A stretch of DNA of 64,000 nucleotides, taken from Marsupella aquatica. Its lineage: Eukaryota > Plantae > Marchantiophyta. Of this stretch, positions 3,001-60,863 are shown one piece after another. The position numbers were made by a program, and so were the translations under genes. The stretch is from the NCBI GenBank assembly GCA_973895155.1, contig OZ316895.1, forward strand, positions 2,343,659-2,407,658, in the 5' to 3' direction. Position 1 is the first letter of the stretch; each line of letters begins with the position of its first letter. The notes under the pieces were generated by a model, which was not told the origin of the DNA, searched no databases, and worked only from the letters and a program-made list of their open reading frames with translations.

Positions 3001-4841
3001 AAAAATTTCCACGTCTTGAGGATTTCAATAAACTTAAGAGAGTCAAAGCACACCTTAGCACCGGCTTTTGCTTTCTCAAATCCCAAACCACTGCCACGTT
3101 ACAGCCAGTACAAACGTTAGAGGTGAGATGAGATCGAGTGGCCCCAAATCGGCATCTCTCGACTTATAAACGAGCAAAGCCTGGGTTGCGTAGCCCACAG
3201 ATCGTCATCGACGACAAAGAGTTCGACAAAGAGTTCACCACAAAACGCCTTGTTCATGATGGGCAGGAGCAATTTACGCCATGAAAGGTCAGGCAGGGTT
3301 TTTTGAAACCAACACTGCTTACCAGTCGTCCCACTGTACGAAGTTGCTGCAAGGATGGGTTGCACCTTACGATTCCACGATAGATATGATATCTCTCCTC
3401 CCTTGGCGCCTCCAGCCTAAGAAGAGCAACAACGTATCATCAAGTGCACCTAGAAAAGCCTTCGTTACGAGACTTCAAATCAGAAGTCAAAACACAAAGG
3501 TTCGTCGATCTTACTCTCAGGGGTCTCAGCGGGGGATAATGAGTTGGCGTCGTTGGGACTTTTAGATCCCAAATATACAAATCTCCATCGGCCCCTCCGG
3601 AAGCGAGTAGATTCGGTGCCAGTGGACTAAACTCCAGTCCATTAACCTGCAATACGAGGGGGGGTGATAAGCGTAAAACCTTACTCTGAATACAGCCAAT
3701 CCTGAAAAGCGAAGATGGATCATGACTCCCTAACGCCATTCGATGCCCACGTAGACGTGAAAGGAGTAAGTAGTGTAACTTTGCATGCGCAGTTAGGACC
3801 CGCAAACCTCGTCGCAGACTGATCATGGACTTGCTTATCTGAATAGGGATTTTCAGCATGGAGATTCTACGCAGGATAAAGTTTCAGATTGCCCCTCGCA
3901 AAGTCCCAAATGTTGATCATAGTGTTTGCGGGGTTTAAGATTCTTCAAGGTAATGGAAAAGTAGAGAAAACAAAAATAGTGCTCGTTCCGTATCCTTGCT
4001 AACTCCCCCCCTCTCCACGCCCCCACCCAACCTTTCCAACCTCCTCCAAAAAGGCATTTCTTACAACCACCAACGCGGACGATCCATGGAATATGAACTC
4101 GTTATAGCCAATTCAATAGACCAAATGAAGTGAAAGAACAGTGCATTTCTGGCACACCCTATGCGACATCTGATCAACCACGACGACGTCAATTCCTTGG
4201 CCAGAAATGGGAGGGTAGAGACAGAAAGGTAGGTCAATCACTCACAGCTCCCGAATGCTTCTCTGGCCTCGCGATAATAGAGTCTGTCGCGTCAGCACCA
4301 TCTCCACTGCGATCGGAAGCGTAAACCAAATGAAAGCATAAGACACTTACATATTTCCCAGGTTCACCACATGCCGAGCAAGTAATCGCATGCGCATAAG
4401 AATGAGAAAAGGGACAGTCCCAAGTCCCGGGAAGACGACCACTTAAACTCAGCAGAAGCCAACCCTATGAAACTCAAAGAACAATGCACGCTGCTATGAT
4501 TAATAAGAAATCTAGGTCACATACCTCACGAGTTTTGCTGGATTCCACAGATTGATGCTACCATCCGAAAGCCCGCCGGCAATAATTCCCAGCGAGTAAT
4601 CCTCGCTTCCGCCAGCATTATTTGCCCACGAAAGCCGATTAAACCTCTCCGTTGTCGGACAAGAATTCAGCACCGGCAGCTCCTGCTCTGTATTCGCGAA
4701 GTCCAGCTCCAAGATCTCCAGCGACGCCGAGGAGCTGAACGACGGATCGATTGCTCCCGCCATTGTTCCCACTGCCATCATCGACGCAGTCGGCGCGAAC
4801 GCCACTGTCGCCGACCTCTCTATCGCCTTCAACGTCGCCAT
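1..4841 (-). CDS. SEC31: Protein transport protein SEC31 (COPII outer coat), 5' portion; gene continues beyond the left edge
   Basis: Spliced exons approx. 4841-4525, 4306-4246, 3646-3515, 3416-3322, 3090-3054, 2800-2692, 2539-2482, 2142-2025, 1915-1796, 1631-1567, 807-683, 569-443, 263-<1, all with GT..AG introns. They give [17 protein letters not shown]...[21 protein letters not shown]40 repeats ([77 protein letters not shown]), [22 protein letters not shown] and [10 protein letters not shown], characteristic of plant SEC31. Confidence 0.96.
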
Positions 4842-4844
4842 TTT

Positions 4845-5200
4845 CCTCCTCCGTCGTTCGTCCTTCCCTCGATCTCCTCTCTTCTCGTCTCTCCTCTCTT
4901 CTCTCCTCCCTTCTCCCTGCCTCTCCTTCCTCGCCTTTCTCGATGCTGCTCCACTGCAACCTCGATGCAGGGTTCCTCTTTGATCAGCTCAACTCTCGAT
5001 CTCGATCTGCCGATCCACCGACACCTTTTCCTCTCGATCTACAGAGTCAAGTATCTACACACGGAGAGCTCGATCGGCTCCCCCTTGTCTCTCTCCCTCT
5101 CTCTCTGTGTCAAACGAGTCGAATCGAGTCGACTCTCGGAGCTCTACTCATAGAGCTCTCTCTCTCCCCTCTTCTATTTCCTTCCCTTTCTTTTCTCGTC
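4845..5200 (-). promoter_or_regulatory. GA/CT-rich 5' UTR and proximal promoter of SEC31
   Basis: Long CT-rich tracts on the + strand (GA-rich on the sense strand) immediately upstream of the ATG at 4841, typical of plant 5' UTRs and GAGA elements. Confidence 0.5.
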
Positions 5201-30933: not shown

Positions 30934-32516
30934 TCAGTTCTTCTTCGACACCACGGTGGAGATGTAGAAGTTCCAACATATGGCACATGTTGACATGAAG
31001 GCAACTCGTGCATCCAAAGGCACCACTCCAAAATTGAGAAAACTCACTGGAGTCCAAAACTTCCAGCCTGCAGAAAAAGAACTGAACACATTTAGATTGA
31101 TGGTACCTTAGACAGAATGACCGTACAGATCAGGGCTAGGGCTTCGGAGGGTTATCGACGGTGTTCAAAACTAGCGAGGTAGACATAGACTCGGGTCATA
31201 TCCAGCACAATGTGCTACTCAGGATGACAGAGAGGCCCAGGACTGACTTCCTTTGGGAAGTTGCAGAAGAAAACTAAGACAGGAGTGCCAAGACATTCCG
31301 ATTGAGCTGGAGTCCCAGCCCAAGAAAGCTTACCATCCACCAGGGTAGGGAAGGCCTTGTAACGGTACATGTCCGGGAGATAACTTAGTCGCCCTTGCCA
31401 GCCAGAATTCCAAGCGAAGACGATGGCAATAACTATGGGACCAAGCACCAGTTGGTTCAGTGCTACCTGCAATTTCCACCGAACTCAGTAAGTAGAATGA
31501 AGCACATCGCTCTAATGGAGCATCTCGATTGAGACTACCAAAGCTCATTTCTGTTGCACTGCTGTACGACGCAACCTGATTAGGGTCCTTTTTTGATAGA
31601 ACTACTCCAGACGCCACAGCCTCGCACGAGCCAATATGACCACATCGTACTATAACAAAACGTTAATAGCAAGAAATAAGCCTATCCACAACACCTTCCA
31701 CAACGTGGGGGCTCCCCTCACAGTACCTTAGCGGAAAAATTCGCGAGAGTTTTGGCTGGCATTTGGCTGTCCAGTAGCTTGTACCACCAGTCAGAAAGTG
31801 GCCCATACAGCAAGAATCCGTAGCTTGCCATTCGCAGGGATCTGACGAAGTCATGCCGCCAAAGGGTATCGTCCGTTAAAATCTGCACTAAGAGGGACCG
31901 TTTGAGTCGAACATCAGAATCCGAGCGGAAGCAATCTTACTCAATGACTCACATCTAGCGCGTACAAACATTCGCACAAAAGTGAAGAGCACTCAGAATG
32001 CAAAAATAAGACATTTGGTACAGAGAATGCTGGAAAATCGTTACACCTCAGACCGTAATTTTAAACTAATGAACCTCATAGATGGGGCTGGCAAGCGAAG
32101 AGTTAATATTTAATTGGAAAAAGCCCTATGTACAGCCGACAACGAAAAGCATGACAATCCACCCATCTGAAAGGTCATTCATCAAAAACAGGTATTCAGA
32201 GTCATTCATCAAAAACAAGTATTCAGAGTAGAAAATATGCAAAACTCACATCCTTCCGTGAAGAGAATTTCATCAGCGACTTTCGGCTTTCATAGCGACC
32301 ATAGAACTGCGCAGCGGTGTCCCCAACAAGCGCAAGACCACCAGACGTCAAGCCAGCCTTCAAAGGAAACTTCCACTTCTGCTTCGGAGCAGTCAGCTCA
32401 GGCTCCACTGAGCCCTCACCAATACCACCATCCACAGCCCTGGGCGGAGGGAGCCTGCCAGACCCGAATGGTAAATCGAATCCTCCAAGCCCGTGGACGA
32501 GACCTCGGCCCCACAT
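30934..32516 (-). CDS. Mpv17/PMP22 family membrane protein
   Basis: Exons 32516-32250, 31882-31727, about 31466-31334 and 31067-30934 give MWGRG..KFPLKAGLTSGGLALVGDTAAQ..HDFVRSLRMASYGFLLYGPLSDWWYKLLD..KVALNQLVLGPIVIAIVFAWN..PTLVDGWKFWTPVSFLNFGVVPLDARVAFMSTCAICWNFYISTVVSKKN*, with the Mpv17/PMP22 hallmark motifs. Confidence 0.93.
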
Positions 32517-32866
32517 TCTCGCCCCTTAGCTCCGACGCCTGTCTTGTCTTTTGAGACACACTCTAGAACATGCTTCACAATTCGCCTCCTTCCTTTCTCA
32601 CCACCGCAAAACAAAGGCTGGTACCTCGACCAGCTTCAGCCCAGCGGAGCTATGGAAAAGCTGAGTTCCTGAGTGAAAGACGGACCGTTTCACCAGTGAC
32701 AAACCCACAACGAGGACTTCCCCGACCATGATAGATGGACTGGAGGCGGCCTCCATGGTAGACTCTCAGCTTACCCACAAAAAGGTGTGGTGGGACTGCG
32801 GCTGTCGGATGATGTGTGGTGGCGGCCTCGCCTCTGAGCTTTATCCTGCGTACTCAGCTCAGCTAA

Positions 32867-32994
32867 CCTAAAAAACGGAAGAAAACTGGGAGGAGGTGTG
32901 CAACACTAAATAAGCTCGACGGTTCAGTTCGGGTTCCATCAAAATGCTACCCCTAAAAAACAGAAGAAAACTGGGAGGAGGCGTGCAATACTAA
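32867..32994. repeat. About 85-bp tandem duplication upstream of the Mpv17 gene; copy 2 is split by transposon insertions and resumes at 38391-38432
   Basis: Copy 1 (32867-32951): CCTAAAAAACGGAAGAAAACTGGGAGGAGGTGTGCAACACTAAATAAGCTCGACGGTTCAGTTCGGGTTCCATCAAAATGCTACC. Copy 2: CCTAAAAAACAGAAGAAAACTGGGAGGAGGCGTGCAATACTAA [TEs] GCTCGACGGTTCAGTTCGGGTTCGATCAAAATGCTACC. Confidence 0.9.
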
Positions 32995-33324
32995 GGTGTG
33001 TCTTCCATTAGCCCTCGAACGCAGGTGTTCAGGGTTTCCCTTTAATCTCCAAAAAACGGAGAGGCAATCTCAGCCGCTCATCATTTCAGGGTAACCCCCA
33101 AGTTGAAAAGCAGAGTGGAAGGGTTGCGGGGCCTTCCACTCTTCGTTGGCAGCCCTCAAGGTTACCGGCGCAACATGAATACCGGCACTTTTTACTTTCA
33201 ATAGCCGGTTTGGTGACGGTCACTTTTCAAAACACACTCATGCACTTTGAATGCAATGTTTGTGGCCCCGAAAGTGTTGTAGCGCTAGCGCCATTTTCCA
33301 TCAATTTTTGTAGTCGACGTCAAT

Positions 33325-34564
33325 ATGGGGGACAACTGCAGTGAAAGCGATCCTTGTTATTTCACGTTGCTCTATCAATTACGTCCTCTGTTGGAGTCAA
33401 TTGATCGCGGACATTGTGAATTGGCAGGTGAGTTTTCAAGAATTGGCTGGAGCATCGTGCATTGAGTTTATGACTTGATTGTTTCTTTTCTATGGTTTAC
33501 GTGTGTCATTTGTTCTTCAATTGCAATTTATCAATCTCGTTGTTAATTTTGATCTCTTGTAGCGCCGTTCACTGCAATAATGGAGACTCCAAATGCTGCT
33601 CCTCAACCTACAAATGTTTGCAATCTGTCACCTGTTGGTGGTGCAAACCAGAATTCATTCTCTCAAACTACAGCAAATGGTGAGCAGACTACGACGAGGC
33701 AGTGGAAGTTGCATGAGTTGGGGCTCTTGATTGCTGCAAAACGAATGGAACATGAGAAGTCGATAAACCTCTCAGCAAGAGACAGAATTAAGAGTGCAGA
33801 CCAGAAGTGGAGAGAAATTCTATCCTTCCTTGCCAAAGATGGGGTGGTGCGACAAGCTACGCAGGTAAAAAAACGGTGGGAGAAACTCATGACTGACTTC
33901 AAAAAAGTTTATGACTACCAGAGTGGTCAACCTAGTTACTATGAGATGGGAAGCGAAGACAGGAAATCAAGAAAGTTGTCGGTCAATCTTCCTCATGAAC
34001 TATTCGAAGGCATGGAATGTTGGTTGGGGAACAACAGAGTTATAATCCTTCACAAAACCAAGTTGTCGACACTGGCACTATGGAGCACACTCAGCAGGCT
34101 GCACAATCTGACAGAGAGCTTAGCACTCAATTTGCTAGCAGCACCCACATTGGAGCTAAAGGAAGACATTCCCGCTGAATTCAAAGCAGAAGTTGACTCC
34201 CCCCCTGAAAATATGGAACATTCCGCTGCAGAGGGACCGGGAGAGGCACAAAGAGGAAGGCCACCCCCAAAGGCAAGTCACTACACTGGTGTGAAGAAAA
34301 ACAGACAAGACAAGCTTGATGAACAATTCAAGAAGACCACCACTGCATTCCTTGACTTTCTCGGCAAGGATGGAAAAGTCTGCACGACACTTCCATCCTG
34401 GACTGGGAGAAGGATAAGCACGATAGACTTGTAGCTTTGGAGCTCAAGAAACATCAGGAAATTGTGGAACAGCAATCAAAGATGACAGCCGCAATGTCAA
34501 ATGCAATTGTTTGTGTCTCAAATTCTATCAGATTTTTTGCTACGGAGGTTGCACGTAAGAACTA
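33325..34564 (+). pseudogene. Myb/SANT-like (trihelix-type) DNA-binding protein of the Harbinger element, probably frameshifted toward the C-terminus
   Basis: ORF 33580-34434 contains WKLHELGLLIAAK...DQKWREILSFLAKDGVVRQATQVKKRWEKLMTDFKKVYDYQ..SYYEMGSEDRKSRKLSVNL, a trihelix Myb/SANT pattern. A candidate first exon 33325-33427 (G|GTGAG) splices in frame to the acceptor at 33563. A coiled-coil-like continuation lies in other frames after about 34400. Confidence 0.85.
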
Positions 34565-35776
34565 GGAAAGGTAGTTCAAGATCACATGACTATTATATGT
34601 GTTGAAGAGAAGGCAAACCTGTTTGCGGAGAGCTCTGAGCGGTTTATATAGGAATTTCATTTTTTATAGGACTTGCAATTTGTGAACCTATCACAAGCAG
34701 TTTTCTATAGTGGAATCTTTGTTTTAGAGGCGTAGGTTGAATCGTAAGTCATTGTGGAGAAATCGGTTGTGACTAGAGTAATCTAAGAAGCCTACAAGGC
34801 CAGATTGAAATGGATTTTCTATTGAGTATGATGAAGCTTGAATGCAACGTAGAGACCACTTTTTGATCATTTGTATATTTGGACTCTTTGTACATTTGAC
34901 TGGGCATTGTAAAGCTTTCAATTTTGTGTGGCCTACAATCTTCGAGACCCCCCTCTGAGAATCAGATCTTTCTTGCATACAATGCCATTTGTGCCCAAGA
35001 ATAATTCAGTTTGCATCAATACTCTTGTGTGTCCATTGTTCGTAATAATTATATGCTCCCATGCATTAAGAGTAAAAGTTCTCAAACAGATTGAGAGCAA
35101 AAAGCCATTCCATTTTTTGGTAAATTACTTCCCAATGCACATAAGCAACAACACACGATGATTCCTCACATTTTTTGGTAAACGAGTCTCCAACGCAAAT
35201 GAGCCAACAGTACACAGGAATGATTCAATGCAGATGTGCAACATGGCAATGAATGATTCCACACAAGGAGCACTTTGCATGTCTCAATATTTGTGCATCT
35301 GTAGAGTCCATGGGCTACTCTCGACAAGTCCCTCAGTACTTACCATTGAGCTCCTAATAGCTCATGCACTATAGATAATTCTGGGGCAACGTGAATGGCA
35401 TTATATAATTATTCAATGTAGGTTGGCTCTTTTCTAGATCCTGCTATAAGGTTCCCTGGATAGTACGATGGACTCCACAAAAAAAATCAGCAGTACCAAG
35501 GTGGACCCTGGTGAACAGTGGATGTGCTCCATCACTCCATCACGGTGGCAGAGGATGTAAAGTGTGCCATTAAAATTGAGAGAATTACAATAGTGCAATC
35601 TATCCAAGACCGACAATAAGGCAGTTATGTCCACGATCGCGGGTGGCAACAATTTGACATATAAATCCTCTAAAACAAAGTAGTATCTTGGGCTACCAAT
35701 TGTGAAATAGCAATCACTGCTAATCACTGACATCGTCATCATCTATATTCCCATTGATTTCATATTTACTTTTGTA

Positions 35777-37160
35777 TCACATATTCCTATGTCCTCTTCT
35801 GCCGTCCAAAGACCAAACCTTGTTTAAAAGATTATCTCTAGCCTCTAGGCCCCCTTCCATGTACTCCCTTCTTGGAACATGTACACCAAAGTATCCACCA
35901 GGGTGAGCTGAGATACCACGTAGCAGATCTGGCCTCATTGATTCCCCATGGTCAATCAACAAATTATGAAGGATGCAGCAACAGTAGATCATTGGACCAA
36001 CCCTATCCTTTTTGGGTTTCCACAAAATTCTGCTGAGAATTTGCCAAATCCCTTTCAATTGTCCAAATGCTCTTTCTACTGCCATGCGAGCTTGAGAGTG
36101 TCGATGATTAAACCAATCATGTTCGTCAGACAACCCTCTAGTGAAGGGTACCATTAGCCAAGGATAGAGTGGGTATCCAGCGTCACCCAAGACATATTCT
36201 CTCAAGATAGAGCTGTCATTGTTGCAAATATATTCTAGGCCATGCAATTTTGTCCTGCAATATTCTACATCTCTAAAGAATGTAGAAACCCTCAACGTAC
36301 AACCTGGTATCTTGGATACTTCCAGGCCAGCCAACAACCACGTTTAAAAATCGCAGCTTTAAATCCACTACGGCTTGCATTGAAACAAATAGCTTTTTTT
36401 TTAAGTCAAAATAGTCTTGGCTCCTTTCAGATGCAGGCAAATCAAGAGGAAAATGTGTGCCATCAATGGCCCCTAAACAATTAGGGAATCCCCACCATGC
36501 AAGAAACTCCAACTTCACCTCATCGAGTTCAGCTGCAACTGGCCATTTGATGAGCCCCTTTCCTTGTTTGTTGACTCCTTGGATAAATTTCCAAGTAACC
36601 TTGATAAATGTACTACAAGAAACTCCAAATAACTCTCCAATGCCAAGGAATTGATCGCCTATTGCTAGCCTCCTCAGTCCTATTGCAACTTGCCTCTCCA
36701 CACTGAGCTTTCGGTTAGGCAATGAGCAGAATTTCAGAGGCGGATTTGTCACCATGTCATCATGCACCATTTCACATATTGCATAGAAAGTAGGTGGGCT
36801 CACTCTGAAGAAATCCTTGAACCTTTCAGGATCCTCAAGTGGAACTCAATCTATGAATAGATAGAACCATTGGATGCTTCTTGGTTTGATATACCAATTA
36901 AGGGCAATCTATTTGACGTTTCCTTGCAAAATAACTCCTGAGAATTCGCAAATATAGCCAAATTTCCTTCCATTGCTCGTCACTGTCACGTTTCCTTTTA
37001 CGTGATGGCAGATTGATAGTCATGGAGGCTAGCTGAAATTGCACCTTCACTGGATAACAATTGTTTGTTCATCAATAGAGTGGAATCAAGAACTCCCATC
37101 ATCAATGTTGTCCAAGAAAATAACACTGCCAAGATTGAATTGAAGTGATTAGGCTCCATG
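35777..37160 (-). pseudogene. Harbinger/PIF DDE transposase (DDE_Tnp_4, HARBI1/ALP1-like), disrupted
   Basis: WYIKPRSIQWF..*..EDPERFKDFFRVSPPTFYAIC..LSVERQVAIGLRRLA..FGVS..WP..GFPNCLGAIDGTH..MQAVVD..RFLNVVVGWPGSIQDTR, then a frameshift at about 36300, then LRVSTFF..EYVLGDAGYPLYPWLMVPF..FNHRHSQARMAVERAFGQLKGIWQIL..CCILHNLL. The D-D-E triad is present. There is an in-frame stop at about 36846 and N-terminal frameshifts. Confidence 0.93.
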
Positions 37161-38066
37161 GTCTCTCTATAACGTGAATCCACCATCCACGAGATTGATA
37201 ATTCCTCTCTAGAATACTCCACACAAATTTCCACACAAATACTTGACAAGATCAGTTGAAGCTGAGAGAGGCAGAGAAGGGAAGAGTCGAAGGCACCAGT
37301 TCAATTCATGCCTTGTCAAAATGACTCTCTGTACAATACAAGATCAAGGAAAAGGGTAGTTGTCAACACAACAATTAACCCAACTGAGCTGTACTAAAGA
37401 GTTTCGCTTTTGTGTTCTAGTAAAATTTTGTTGTGTTTCCGATACGTGATGCAATTGATTGAACAAAATCAAAGAGCATGGACAACATTTAATCCCGTCC
37501 TGTGCATTCCAAAATGAACATCGTAAATTGACTACGTACTTTGCACTGTCAATCATTGCAGTTTGAGCAGGTGAATGACTACAATTGTGATGTGCTCCGT
37601 AAAATTTTAATGTGCTTTGCTGGTTGCTGCTTTGGATCACATTGTTTTGACTTACGTAAGCACTGAATTCTACTTCCCTCCGAAATTGTATATGCTATTA
37701 GAACTAGAGAGAAGCAAAATGGACTCACTTGTGAAACGCGCAACTGCTCCACCGCCTCTGAAATTGTGTACGCTACAGGGGAAGAACAAAGTGGCTCCCA
37801 CTTGTGAAAGGCACACCCACTCCACTGCCTCCAAAATTGTGTATGCTAAAGTGGAAAAACAATGTGACAATGTGGACTCCCAGTTATGAAACACGCAAAT
37901 GGGTCCACCGTCAGAAGTGCCAGTTCCATAGTTTAGGTCTCTCTCACACAATTTTCTGGGTTGCGGGCAAATGGAAATAAACTGGTGCTGCCCTCTATTC
38001 AAAACAGGGGTTGAGACAAGTTGAGGGTTGAGGGCCCGTTTGAGGACTAATGGAATACTCACCTAA

Positions 38067-38390
38067 GGGCCGTCTTGCATGTGCAAGGTCCTTTGATATT
38101 CGGCCTTCAAATGAACCCGTGGCATCTCTAAAGGAAGTGACAAGCCGACAGTCCTAATGGCATCTTTGCAGGATATGCAAGGGCAAGGGCTGGAAATTTT
38201 CCGGCCCGCCCTTGAGGTCCCGAACCCTGAACTTTGAATAAAACAAAATTGCAGTAGACTCGAGTGAATAAGCACTTCACACGTAAGTTGTTCTTTATTG
38301 TGTTTAGATCCTGGGTCCACACTTTTTCCCGACATCTGTGGGTTGCTAAGGGTCGCATTTTTCAGGACTTTTGCACATGCAAGACAGCCC
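38067..38390. mobile_element. Tourist-like MITE (324 bp), PIF/Harbinger superfamily
   Basis: TIR GGGCCGTCTTGCATGTGCAA (left) and TTGCACATGCAAGACAGCCC (right). Flanked by TAA (38064-38066 and 38391-38393). No coding capacity. Confidence 0.9.
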
Positions 38391-38479
38391 TAAGCTCGAC
38401 GGTTCAGTTCGGGTTCGATCAAAATGCTACCCTTGTCAATAATAAACCTTAACTCACTGGTTATGGACACAAAAAGTTA

Positions 38480-38680
38480 TGTACTGGAAAATTCAATACT
38501 AACTCCATAATTTTTTGCAGTTAGTATTGGTCTTATCCCGACAGATGCGCCAAATGGGGAGACAGAAATCCTACAGGCGAAAAGACTCAATAATGGGAGG
38601 GAGAAGAGGAAGGCCTTGAGAAGACCTATCGGCCCAACAAGCCAAGGAGTCCCCCACAACATCAAAAAGTCCACTAAGAA
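38480..38680. repeat. Dispersed repeat fragment related, in inverted orientation, to 53140-53330
   Basis: CAAGCCAAGGAGTCCCCCACAA and GCCAAATGGGGAGACAG here match the reverse complements CAAGCCAAGAGGTCCCCCACAA and GCCAAACGGGGAGACAG near 53158-53265. Confidence 0.55.
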
Positions 38681-39954
38681 GCTAAAATTTCATGGGATGG
38701 GTTTTGTGGGTAGTGAAATGGGAGTAGTGGATTATTTACTTGGCCCCTGGTTGTCCTTTGTGACCTTGCTTTAATCCTCTCTTTCTCATGAAATCCATGA
38801 GTGCTCACCCTGAAATGGGGTTCCCTACAATGAATGTATGTTACTATTGGGGTGGGGAGAGTCTACTAAATGTTCTTCCTCATTTCTATTCAAGATGGAA
38901 CCCTGTAGAGGAGAAAACTAAAAATCCTGGTATAATTTCAGAGTGAACTGGATGGGAGGGTCGCACAAGGGAAACTGTCTAGAGGTCCTAAAACCAATTG
39001 CCTTGGCTCTATGGAGAATGGTGAAAGCAAAGTGTTAGGTGAGTTGTGTATGCTAGCCGGTTCCTTGAACACAAATACAGATTACAAAAAAAATGAGAAA
39101 ACCTTGCATGTTATTTCCTGTTCATCTTTGCCCCATCCTTGTTTTTGGTTCGCACCCTCATTTTCAGTTATGCCCTCGCTCGATAGTCAGAGTCTAGAGG
39201 CTTTGACTTCACTCTAGACAGTAGTCACAAGGAGTAGCTTTTGATTGTGCTTTATCAGTTAGATATAAAGCTCATTGAAAACTAAAGCAAAGCGCCAAGA
39301 GGGAGACAAGATTGCAAAGGCATTAAACTCCATAAATAAGAGAAAACAAGAGGAATCCCAGGGAAACCAAAGAGGAGCAACTGCCAAAGAACTAAAGCCT
39401 TACAAGGCAATAATGTCACCTACATGAATTAACATGGAGGCACTAATGCCAAAAGCCTTAACCTACAAAGAATAGTGAATATATGAGCCCTCCTTAGTGC
39501 AACGCGCACCTATTCCTAAAGTACCTATTCCTAAAGTACTTGTCCTATATAAAGGCTTGACTGTTAAATTTTGGACATTTTCCAATAGAGAGAGACTTAA
39601 CTTACTTTGTTCTCTATCAAAACAATTTTACATTAATATAGTTGTCAAGACAAAGCAAGCAAAAATGCCTTGCCTGTGATGGAATATCCTCTGCCCGTGC
39701 CCTCATTGTGTGCTTCGGATAACGTGTCTCTATCTTCTAGAAATGTCTGACTTCTCTAATTTCTTGGTGGCACAGTTAGGACGCTTTTCAGCTGCACATT
39801 GGATGCCATAGTTAAAAGCTCTGCGAGTTTCCATTGGAGAGTGAAAAAACAATTGTATGAGGGGGAACTCCTGTATTGATATGATTGGCAAATAAATTAA
39901 TTCCGACAATGCTTACAATAATGTTTGACTTTGATTGACTGTCTATTGAGTTGT

Positions 39955-48136
<8,182 letters not shown>

Positions 48137-57980: not shown

Positions 57981-59638
57981 TCAAGTTGCAACAGGCTGCT
58001 CAACTGCAACCTTGCTCTCTGGCTCAATATCTGGCTTTGCTTCTGTGGTCAATCCAAACCTGGTTCAATTCAAGAACATATCAGCCGCCTGGGTCTTAGG
58101 GAAATATTTAGGGCCATACATCCCATATCCATAAACAAAAGTAAACAAGAAGCCAAGACATGTAACTACGAGAATCTATGCATCTTCTAACATCAAACAT
58201 CTGATCATTTTCCATCCGGTAGAAAAACAAATAGCACCTTACGGCCTTCCTGTTTTGCCGTCCAACGATGAGACATTGTGATTGCAAATGATCTTGACAT
58301 ATCTAGTTGAAAGTGATGAAAGGAAGAAAATTACTGTACTACCTTGCTGCTCGAAGTTTCTTCTTCTCTTGTTCCTGAGGGTCTAACTTGATCTCAAGAC
58401 CAAATCTCGCAAGCCTGGCCTTTTTCTTGGCATCATCAGCTCCTGGGGGAGAGGGGGCTGCATGCTTTTCACCAACTTCTTCTATACCGAACCTGCGTAT
58501 TACACATTTGCGACAAATTTCACTTAACTATCCAATTCTAACACGAGTAGAGACAATCAACAAATTCAGTCCAAAGATAGCACTGCCCCACATTGCAAAT
58601 AAATCGGACGATAGTACCTTGCAGCCCGTGCCTTCCTCTTGACTGCTTCGGCATCTTTCAAGGTGGGGTTCATCTTACTGGAATCATCCTGGGATGCTCC
58701 GTTGGTCTTAGTGTCCACAGTATCACCGAATCTGCAACAGATATTTCAGCCCCATGTCAACCCTAAACCATGAAGCATACAGTCACTCACATGTTCATTC
58801 AATGACTGGCTTCTATAGGCAAGTGAGATGATGAAGACCATAGGAATAACTACGCTGTAATTGCACTTGTCTCGCAGCACTTAAAAGAAACAACCAGCAT
58901 GGCCTAAATTTGGAGCGAGTCTCTGCATGACGAACAGTTGGAACCGACAAATCCCTGCCTGCTTGATGGATAATTAGCATCGATGGTCACAAACTTCAAC
59001 GCAAAGTTTCTAGGTCCAAGACTATTTTCCAAATTATCACATAAGAATTTTGATGCCACCAAAAATGACAGGTTTCTGACATTAAGCACTATCGCAGATG
59101 CAAACAAAACTCACCTGGCGGCGCGCAATCGTCTCTTTTCACTCTCAGATACCATGAGTTCAAGCCCGAATCGTTCTGCACGGCGCTGCTTTTTTTCCAG
59201 GTCTGAGGAAGGTGGTGCCACTCCTGTGCCATTCGTTATCAGAGCAGGAGATTCCTCAGTGGCAGCTTTGACTTCCGCGTCCTTCTCAACGGATGGCTGA
59301 TCTTCTGTACTTGTAACGGGAATGGCTTCTGCTATCGCCTCTTCTGCAACTACTAGGGGCTCTATTGTGATTGGTTCACCTGCAGGATGCTTCTCATCCA
59401 CCTGATCTACCAGGGCACCTTCATTAATATCCAATTCCATATCCTCTCTCGCACCGGCGTCAGCAGTAACAGTTGCAATGTCGTCCTCAACCTTGGCGGC
59501 AGCCGTCTCAAGCCTCTCTATCAACGTCGACTTTACGCCAGCTGTGTCCAATCCTCTACTAGTGAGTTCATCACGTAATTCCTGCACCTTCATCTTCTTC
59601 CAGTCCGGCGCTGCTCCAGGAACTATCGGGGTCGCCAT
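57981..59638 (-). CDS. MOS11: SAP domain-containing ribonucleoprotein (MOS11/SARNP/CIP29/Tho1), TREX-associated mRNA export factor
   Basis: Exons 59638-59114, about 58732-58618, 58492-58343, 58059-57981. N-terminal SAP domain (WKKMKVQELRDELTSRGLDTAGVKSTLIERL) and five repeats of the RAxRFG motif (KKQRRAERFG, KRRLRAARFG, KRKARAARFG, KKKARLARFG, KKKLRAARFG), typical of Tho1/MOS11 C-termini. Confidence 0.92.
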
Positions 59639-60863
59639 GTCTCAAACCAAATCCCGCTCTGTTTGGCTCCAACAACCCTAAAATGGAAACCGATATAACC
59701 ACAGCCGAGAACGTAGCAACCACAATTTAATTTCGCAAGGACGATAAACGCCCAACGCAGCGCAACGTTAACCTTACGTGACGCAGATCCAGCCGGTCGA
59801 GTATTTCTCTGGCTCTTGAATTATTTTATCAGAATCTGGACGGGTAATGTTCTTTCCATGAACATGAACGGGCGAAATCGGGGATAAAAGAACGAGACGT
59901 CACAGAGGTCAGAAAGAACGCAGAAAAAGGCTTTCAAGAGGAAATAAGGACCCTCCCACAGTACTAGTCCAGTCCACTTCCCGCAGAAGAGACTTTCCCC
60001 TGAGAAAACAGTTAAGTCACTTAAAGGTTTGAACCAGGGCAATGAAAGGAAGAAAGGAACAGACTCAACAGATAGAGGACCAGGAAAAAAAACAGTTTAG
60101 AACCCGTCTACACGAATGTCCTGTACCTTGTAGGGAACAGACACACGAGGTGATGATGCGCCAGGTAAGACGTTGGAATTGAAGAGACTCACGACGCCGC
60201 GGCCCACAATTTTCTCAGATGTGCCCGCAGAGTGTCCAAGTGAGGCAAAGCGACGAACAACCTCCCAGAACACCTACCACACGCGGAGAACAGAGTCCAA
60301 GGGAGAAGAACAATCCACCCCGCAGCGAGGAATGAGACTGCGTGCGACCATAACAGGGCAAGTACAGGTACTGTATACCCAGCAGTCAAATTTTCCCACA
60401 AAAGGAAACTGCTACAACAGTAAAAGTATCCAACGAGGAGTCAATGGCGGCGAACGTCTTCGCAGGGGCAGAATGATGAGGGAGAGTCGGGTGCGAGTGA
60501 GCATGAGAAGAGCAAGTCAGAGACAAGGTCACAAACGGGAGATGGACATCGCGGCGGTTGGATAAAAAAGAGGTGGAGGCTCTGGAAATCAAACGATACG
60601 ACTTCCTCAGGATCAGGCGAGGAACTGGTGCGGATATGGAGGAACAATGTCGTCGAAGGGCTGGTCTGCAGAGTGCGGAGAGCTGTATCGGTGGAGAGAG
60701 GAGAGGAGGGGGCTGGCTTCCGCAGTAGTGTAAAGTTCGTGACACAATAATGCGTTCGGACTTCGGAGGGGAGAAAGAGTGCGGGTGACAAGAACGGAAA
60801 CGGGGTGTGTTTCTTCGAGAACGAAGAAACGGGCACGGTTTGATCGAGCATAATATAATAATA

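What the first reader, a model, noticed from the sequence alone, without database searches (positions are those of the whole stretch)
32995..38063. A true Harbinger transposon whose transposase resembles the Polycomb antagonist ALP1 but keeps DDE, TIRs, TSD and a Myb partner
Seen: 27-bp imperfect TIRs, a TAA TSD, convergent Myb/SANT and transposase genes, and catalytic motifs GAIDGTH / LGDAGYP / AVERAFGQLK. Established: Arabidopsis ALP1 (transposase-derived, DDE degenerate) and ALP2 (Myb-derived) are domesticated PIF/Harbinger proteins that associate with and antagonise PRC2. From recall of ALP1, the similarity goes beyond generic HARBI1 motifs: FKDFFRVSPPTFYAICEMVHDDMVTNPP..RKLSVERQVAIGLRRLA.GD, VTWKFI, LREYVLG..YPLYPWL, QLKGIWQILSRILWKP, CCILHNLLIDHG..HPGGY. 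Inference: this may belong to the still-mobile lineage from which ALP1 (and perhaps ALP2) was domesticated, surviving in an early-diverging land plant. If so, intact copies would allow a test of whether PRC2 binding began as a transposon anti-silencing function. This copy has a stop and frameshifts and is probably inactive.
Basis: partly seen in the sequence, partly recalled or inferred. Interest (0 to 1): 0.8.

Follow-up and report, generated by a model that had tools for sequence, protein, structure and literature searches.

The report
Dead Harbinger transposon, cousin of ALP1
This 5-kb DNA transposon has both ends, its target-site duplication and both genes, now broken; its cutting enzyme groups near, but outside, the plant Polycomb regulator ALP1, so it is likely a once-mobile cousin of ALP1 rather than its direct source, and no link to Polycomb is shown.

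Summary
Window 32995-38063 is a PIF/Harbinger element with 27-bp TIRs (23/27 matching; best of 264,122 TAA/TTA-flanked pairs in the window), TAA on both sides, a Myb/SANT gene (+) and a convergent DD35E transposase (-). Both genes are broken. The ALP1 likeness is real: after unnamed relatives, the best hits are ALP1-family proteins (about 39% identity), and grouping with distant Harbingers is rejected (AU p=0.0006). But the element is not in the ALP1 orthogroup (p=1.5e-76), which has its own liverwort members. It sits in a separate clade whose only named members are from the liverwort Calypogeia. That clade was ALP1's sister in 0 of 400 bootstrap trees, although the AU test does not exclude it (p=0.16); fern/gymnosperm and other unnamed DDE lineages are better candidates. 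The Myb keeps three tryptophans, matches none of five ALP2 motifs, and looks trihelix/HDP2-like. In Arabidopsis it is ALP2, not ALP1, that binds MSI1, so the PRC2 anti-silencing idea (already proposed in 2015) gains a test subject but no evidence. I found no paper on TIR-bearing elements this close to ALP1; Repbase was not searchable.

The parts
32992..32994 (.). Left target-site duplication, TAA
   Evidence: sequence
32995..33021 (+). Left TIR, 27 bp
   Evidence: 23/27 match to the right TIR; best of 264,122 pairs; also pair I1
33580..34434 (+). Myb/SANT (trihelix-type) DNA-binding gene, main frame, three Trp kept
   Evidence: Pfam PF13837 E 1.6e-8; 3 homologues, best from Calypogeia fissa, 35% over 77% of the query; weak match to GT-1 trihelix 2JMW, E 0.083
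34407..34565 (+). C-terminal tail of the Myb protein, now in another frame; likely the nuclease-binding part
   Evidence: second tblastn segment of P0279, 37% over 51 aa, different frame; role inferred from Ping, HDP2 and ALP2
35777..36295 (-). Transposase C-terminal part with the second Asp (36182-36184) and Glu (36074-36076)
   Evidence: Pfam PF13359 E 4e-18; 59% to P0001; codon positions read
36296..36299 (-). Four extra bases that shift the transposase frame
   Evidence: gap between two tblastn segments; organism B contig 35987-36517 has no gap here, so it shares the lesion; diverged relatives break at 36296/36300
36300..36908 (-). Transposase core: HTH region and first Asp (36462-36464); in-frame TGA at 36846-36848
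   Evidence: 61% to P0001 over 203 aa; Pfam PF13359 E 4.1e-10; stop codon
36910..37159 (-). Transposase N-terminal fragments in other frames; putative start at 37159
   Evidence: 37005-36910 matches P0157 residues 88-119; the rest is inferred from six-frame translation
37726..37866 (.). Subterminal 68-bp direct repeat, 81% alike; possible Myb-binding sites (inferred)
   Evidence: family D1
38037..38063 (-). Right TIR, 27 bp
38064..38066 (.). Right target-site duplication, TAA, shared with the adjacent MITE
32867..32951 (+). Flanking 85-bp unit that matches the rejoined insertion site (empty-site copy, 4 bases longer at the TAA)
   Evidence: alignment to 32952-32994 plus 38394-38432: 3 mismatches and one 4-base gap; families D2 and D3

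Best explanation
This is a once-autonomous, now broken PIF/Harbinger cut-and-paste transposon, and its transposase belongs to a separate clade, likely of liverworts, that lies close to but outside the ALP1 gene family. Mechanism, inferred from Ping and the zebrafish Harbinger: the Myb protein binds near the ends, recruits the DD35E nuclease through its C-terminal tail, and the pair cut at the TIRs and insert into TAA, duplicating it. Shown here: the ends, the duplication, an empty-site copy, both genes and the triad. This copy can make neither full protein, but relatives might still move it in trans. The ALP1 likeness reflects shared descent from an old plant radiation of Harbinger nucleases. 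One branch was tamed into ALP1 and its sister gene, and this branch went on transposing. No Polycomb contact is implied.
For: TIR, TSD and empty-site unit. Pfam hits. Triad D-D-35-E in the element; D-D-E also in 7 of the 10 clade relatives shown, the other three being truncated or D-N-E. Eight hits at E<=1e-30 (50-87% identity), then a drop. With P0001 as query, named ALP1-family proteins follow the unnamed close relatives. IQ-TREE, 57 rows: element clade 98/98, with clade B and P0011 100/99; ALP1 group 99/98 with its own Marchantia, Riccia, Adiantum, conifer and angiosperm members; both lie in a 42-row group at 87/92, recovered in 343 of 400 bootstraps. AU tests: inside ALP1 rejected, p=1.5e-76; with six distant Harbinger rows rejected, p=0.00055. 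Diverged relatives about 85-88% identical appear in runs of both organisms, as expected of a TE family.
Against: The 42-row group is not starred (bootstrap 87), and a position just outside it is not rejected (p=0.055). No classical plant PIF transposase was in the tree and only one Pong-type row was fetched, so rooting rests on distant, mostly unnamed rows. Identity to ALP1 rows (39%) is only 6 points above distant Harbingers (33%) and no higher than to the H-H-D group. TIRs and a Myb partner are shown for this one copy only: the metagenome scan returned 4 distant loci and no clade member, and no second insertion with different flanks was displayed. Groups were defined after seeing the first tree, which weakens the AU tests formally. 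The host is not identified.
Confidence: 0.78

Rival explanations
1. The element's clade is the immediate sister of ALP1 and At3g55350, that is, the surviving donor lineage.
For: AU test does not reject it (lnL 9.2 lower, p=0.159). It shares the VTWKFI motif (71% to ALP1 rows, 39-50% to the other near groups) and a W-[KR]-P motif with ALP1 rows.
Against: Sister to ALP1 in 0 of 400 bootstrap trees; the fern/gymnosperm clade alone takes that place in 283 and P0014/P0090/P0282 in 72. It has H-P-x-Y where ALP1 rows, P0282, P0090 and P0054 have H-H-D, and keeps the general IDGTH first-Asp motif.
Confidence: 0.14
2. A TIR element captured host genes (an ALP1 paralogue and a trihelix gene), so the ALP1 likeness comes from a tamed gene and not from a transposase.
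For: The Myb resembles host trihelix/HDP2 proteins (by eye). A Calypogeia clade member, P0004, is a 1011-aa protein that may be a host gene.
Against: Placement inside the ALP1 group is rejected (p=1.5e-76). The triad is intact. A convergent Myb plus nuclease pair inside TIRs with a TAA duplication is the normal Harbinger layout. Several diverged copies exist.
Confidence: 0.04
3. An ordinary PIF or Pong element, far from ALP1, whose likeness is generic or convergent.
For: Several quoted motifs are generic. Classical plant PIF rows were absent from my tree, so that grouping was not tested directly.
Against: No protein with the PIF-type motif I tested (recalled) and one Pong-type protein among all proteins fetched. 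ALP1-family proteins outrank other named plant proteins. Grouping with six distant Harbinger rows is rejected (p=0.00055).
Confidence: 0.04

Closest known systems
PIF/Harbinger superfamily, autonomous two-gene elements (rice Ping/Pong, maize PIF, zebrafish Harbinger3_DR)
   Same: TIRs, 3-bp TAA duplication, a Myb/SANT gene and a DDE_Tnp_4 nuclease with D-D-35-E; gene-rich setting; a Tourist-like MITE alongside.
   Different: The nuclease lies in the ALP1-proximal group, not with the one Pong-type row fetched; the Myb is of the trihelix type (PF13837); this copy is broken in both genes.
ALP1 (At3g63270), rice PANDA and the At3g55350 sister clade (PMC4671723, PMC9129072; passages read)
   Same: About 39% mean identity to 16 ALP1-family rows; shared stretches around the HTH region; the triad is also intact in non-angiosperm ALP1, as Liang et al. 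reported and one search shows for Marchantia, Riccia, Adiantum and conifers.
   Different: ALP1 genes are described as single-copy, immobile and without a Myb neighbour. The element lies outside that orthogroup (AU p=1.5e-76), lacks its H-H-D tail motif, and has TIRs, a TSD and a Myb gene. An intact triad alone is therefore not what sets it apart.
ALP2 (PMC7282668; passages, section 17 and S1 Text read)
   Same: Both are or derive from the Myb partner of a Harbinger.
   Different: ALP2 lost the three tryptophans and binds MSI1 through its N-terminal part. The element's Myb keeps the tryptophans and shows none of five short ALP2 motifs.
HDP2 and trihelix (GT-1-type) Myb proteins (PMC5339849; passages read)
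   Same: Three-Trp Myb/trihelix domain followed by a similar stretch (by eye); weak hit to GT-1.
   Different: HDP2 is a tamed angiosperm gene paired with HDP1, which lies in another clade than ALP1. No alignment score or tree against HDP2 was made.

Membership tests
PIF/Harbinger transposon | Terminal inverted repeats | tested here: met
   23/27, best of 264,122 pairs
PIF/Harbinger transposon | 3-bp TAA/TTA target-site duplication | tested here: met
   TAA on both sides; empty-site copy in the flanking tandem unit
PIF/Harbinger transposon | DDE_Tnp_4 nuclease with D-D-35-E triad | tested here: met
PIF/Harbinger transposon | Second gene for a Myb/SANT protein | tested here: met
   PF13837 E 1.6e-8
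PIF/Harbinger transposon | Several copies with different flanks | tested here: inconclusive
   diverged relatives about 85-88% identical, and 6 contigs over 33030 in run X3, but no alternative flank displayed; no genome held; no other TIR pair in the window
Active autonomous element | Both reading frames intact | tested here: not met
   one stop and at least two frameshifts in the nuclease, one frameshift in the Myb
ALP1/At3g55350 orthogroup | Falls inside the land-plant ALP1 clade | tested here: not met
   AU p=1.5e-76; separate starred clades
ALP1/At3g55350 orthogroup | No TIRs and no neighbouring Myb gene | tested here: not met
   both are present
Immediate sister (donor lineage) of ALP1 | Sister-group position in the nuclease tree | tested here: inconclusive
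   0 of 400 bootstraps but AU p=0.159
ALP2 family | Loss of the three Trp; conserved blocks I-III | tested here: not met
   Trp kept; 0 of 5 short motifs found in six frames; motif test only, no profile comparison
ALP-PRC2 complex | Binds MSI1 or FIE | not testable with these tools

The most novel reading that the evidence does not exclude
A still-mobile liverwort Harbinger lineage is the living sister of ALP1, and its Myb or nuclease already binds PRC2 (MSI1 or FIE) to blunt H3K27me3 silencing. The ALP-PRC2 complex would then have begun as a transposon counter-defence.
Probability: 0.07. Interest if true: 0.85.

Novelty: new member of a known kind. Interest (0 to 1): 0.48.

Why it matters
Liang et al. 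2015 found land-plant ALP1 proteins set apart from PIF/Harbinger transposases, with one Chara sequence in between, and asked whether PRC2 binding began as a way for the transposon to evade silencing. The transposon proteins tested against ALP1/ALP2 in the passages I read were those of rice Ping, which did not interact. This element shows that bona fide TIR-, TSD- and Myb-bearing transposons exist in the group of nucleases around ALP1, so much closer test subjects are available. It also warns that DDE-intact 'ALP1-like' sequences in bryophytes and ferns can be transposons, not orthologues. The mechanism itself is ordinary, the copy is dead, the sister position is not favoured, and the ALP2 link fails.

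Tried and rejected
No whole genome was held, so no genome-wide TIR search. The homologue search with the C-terminal piece among longer proteins found nothing; this is weak evidence, as later searches showed. PDB search with the core piece: 0 hits. PDB search with the Myb: only weak hits, best GT-1 at E 0.083. The ESM Atlas gave only generic DDE_Tnp_4/Plant_tran and Myb_DNA-bind_4 clusters. Metagenome scan: 4 of 77 stretches confirmed, all distant (26-34%), no clade member with flanks. Viral contigs: 0 of 13. No RNA holder listed, which says nothing about expression. Read laying did not display loose ends at the TIRs; 1217 and 132 rows were not shown. Run X1 matches the window exactly and may be its source, so it is not independent. 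Earlier scan findings: 0 by words, 0 by sequence, 8 shown, all other genomes and none bearing on this. No structure or complex was predicted: the fold is not in doubt and no PRC2 subunit was at hand. No alignment or tree against ALP2 or HDP2 was made; that comparison is by eye and by five short motifs, so a remote ALP2 relationship remains open. Arabidopsis ALP1 itself was not among the fetched proteins.
Full report
Observation. The ends 32995-33021 and 38037-38063 match at 23 of 27 positions, the best score among 264,122 pairs of identical TAA/TTA sites 0.2-10 kb apart in the window; the chance background reaches 18. TAA flanks both ends. The site lies in the second unit of an 85-bp tandem duplication. 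Removing the element and the adjacent MITE rebuilds a sequence that matches the first unit with 3 mismatches and one 4-base gap at the TAA, which serves as an empty-site copy. The extra 4 bases in the first unit may be an excision footprint (inference). A Myb/SANT ORF (33580-34434, +) and two transposase pieces (-) pass Pfam cut-offs for PF13837 and PF13359. The triad is D-D-35-E.

Lesions. The transposase has TGA at 36846-36848, 4 extra bases at 36296-36299 and a frame change near 36910. A further one near 37006 is inferred from six-frame reading. The Myb gene has a frameshift between 34353 and 34407 that cuts off its C-terminal tail, the part that binds the nuclease in Ping, HDP2 and ALP2. 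The copy cannot make either full protein.

Other holders. No genome was held. Four of five listed runs hold the stretch, from two coded organisms and two studies. X1 matches exactly and may be the source. In organism B (X3), contigs cover 33139-36517 with 27 differences and 36497-37975 with 13; five flank pieces differ at 10 of about 2,150 bases. An X4 contig spans the 4-base lesion without a gap, so the lesion is shared. A shared insertion site is likely but no junction-spanning piece was displayed. Both organisms also carry diverged relatives (for example 147 differences over 36008-37270 in X3; 39 over 290 bases in X1), six X3 contigs cover position 33030, and some relatives break at 36296/36300. 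Depth sums are not copy numbers, and no alternative flank or intact copy was shown.

Relatives of the nuclease. phmmer with the C-terminal piece found 5,807 proteins at E<=0.001 and 8 at E<=1e-30; 150 were listed. Of the top ten, only P0004 is named (Calypogeia fissa, a liverwort); the rest are unnamed JGI or Logan records. With full-length P0001 as query, 231 of 7,994 scored candidates passed 1e-30 and 120 were listed: unnamed close relatives first, then proteins named ALP1 or ALP1-like from angiosperms, Riccia, Marchantia, Ginkgo, conifers and Adiantum. The Myb search gave 3 hits among 884 candidates, the best again from Calypogeia. A liverwort host is therefore likely but is an inference.

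Trees. The element's core, read through with X at the breaks, was aligned with the 190 of 278 hit proteins that covered at least 230 residues (FastTree). I picked 64 rows by hand, then dropped eight long branches (P0126, P0098, P0084, P0102, P0120, P0112, P0058, P0101) and added P0011 for a 57-row IQ-TREE run. The element lies in a 9-row clade (98/98), joined by P0160, P0009, P0030 and Calypogeia P0011 (100/99). The ALP1 group is separate (17 rows, 99/98) and already holds Marchantia and Riccia, Adiantum, conifer and two angiosperm subclades. Labels come from NCBI names; taking the second angiosperm subclade as At3g55350 is my inference from Liang's topology, and Arabidopsis ALP1 was not in the set. 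Both clades, a fern/gymnosperm clade and three small unnamed lineages form a 42-row group (87/92; 343 of 400 bootstraps). AU tests: element inside ALP1 rejected (p=1.5e-76); element clade with six distant Harbinger rows (one named, Branchiostoma) rejected (p=0.00055); sister to ALP1 not rejected (p=0.159); position just outside the group not rejected (p=0.055). In 400 bootstrap trees ALP1's sister was the fern/gymnosperm clade alone 283 times, P0014/P0090/P0282 72 times, and the element's clade never. Groups were named after the first tree, and no classical plant PIF was included.

Motifs. Mean identity of the element is 57% to its clade (8 rows), 39% to ALP1 rows (16), 39% to the H-H-D group (3), 36% to the fern/gymnosperm clade (9) and 33% to distant Harbinger rows (6). 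VTWKFI, DDMVTNPP and FKDFFRVSPPTF lean to ALP1; the first-Asp motif and the QLKGIW stretch are generic. The tail separates them: H-H-D in 12 of 16 ALP1 rows and in P0282, P0090 and P0054; H-P-x-Y in the element and in 6 of its 8 clade relatives.

The Myb and PRC2. The Myb keeps three tryptophans, which all ALP2 proteins lack. None of five short ALP2 motifs occurs in six frames of the element. By eye it resembles HDP2 and trihelix proteins, with a weak GT-1 hit. In Arabidopsis the ALP2 N-terminus, not ALP1, binds MSI1; rice PANDA was reported to bind OsMSI1 and OsFIE2 itself. Nothing in the sequence points to PRC2 binding, and I could not test it.

Literature. Read: PMC4671723, passages; PMC7282668, passages, section 17 and supplement S1 Text; PMC5339849, passages and a supplement search in which file 13 was not searched; PMC9129072, passages. 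Figures were not visible, including the tree of Duan et al. in which Repbase transposases are intermingled with host clades; it may show elements near ALP1. Liang et al. already report an intact triad in non-angiosperm ALP1 and propose the anti-silencing origin. Nine searches (listings only for the other papers) showed no paper on a TIR-bearing element close to ALP1. The library lacks most subscription journals, and Repbase could not be searched.

Verdict. A real, dead Harbinger element of a lineage near ALP1 that I could not find described: a cousin, not a shown donor, with no ALP2 or PRC2 link. Novelty: new member of a known kind. Interest 0.48, because it offers closer test subjects for an open question while its own mechanism is ordinary.

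Noticed in passing
window 38067-38390: A 324-bp Tourist-like MITE with 20-bp TIRs (21/27 match) and TAA on both sides abuts the element and shares its right TAA. Its TIR differs from the element's, and many contigs pile on it in all four runs.
   Followed up: partly
window 32867-32994 and 38391-38432: An 85-bp tandem duplication; the unoccupied unit has 4 extra bases at the TAA, possibly an excision footprint, which would make this TAA a repeatedly used target.
   Followed up: partly
window 38500-39300: Further high-copy repeats right of the MITE, with many contigs and loose ends in all four runs.
   Followed up: no
window 32223-32756 (-): A gene-like reading frame whose putative start lies about 240 bp left of the element, so the insertion may sit in its promoter. 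It recalls Mpv17/PMP22 proteins from memory; Pfam gave no hit.
   Followed up: partly
window 45889-47424 (-), 59111-59641 (-), 4512-4988 (-): Host gene exons: serine carboxypeptidase and SAP/Tho1-MOS11 (Pfam); a SEC31-like start (recalled, no Pfam hit). The region is gene-rich.
   Followed up: partly
proteins P0004 and P0154 (Calypogeia fissa, CAM6096199.1, CAM6090022.1): 1011-aa proteins with a long acidic N-terminal part joined to an element-clade nuclease with an intact triad: a possible second domestication within this clade, or a gene-model fusion.
   Followed up: no
proteins P0054 (Riccia sorocarpa), P0237/P0224/P0035 (fern clade), P0217 (Ginkgo): ALP1-proximal proteins with altered triads (G-S-D, D-D-A, D-D-D in my alignment): candidate further domesticated nucleases outside angiosperms.
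   Followed up: no
proteins P0282, P0090, P0046 (unnamed JGI records): DDE-intact nucleases that share ALP1's H-H-D tail motif; possibly nearer to the ALP1 donor than this element.
   Followed up: partly
L001 1995-5918: A distant Harbinger-like element in a metagenome contig with 42-bp, 98% TIRs, a split DDE gene and a convergent second ORF; about 30% identical to the query.
   Followed up: partly
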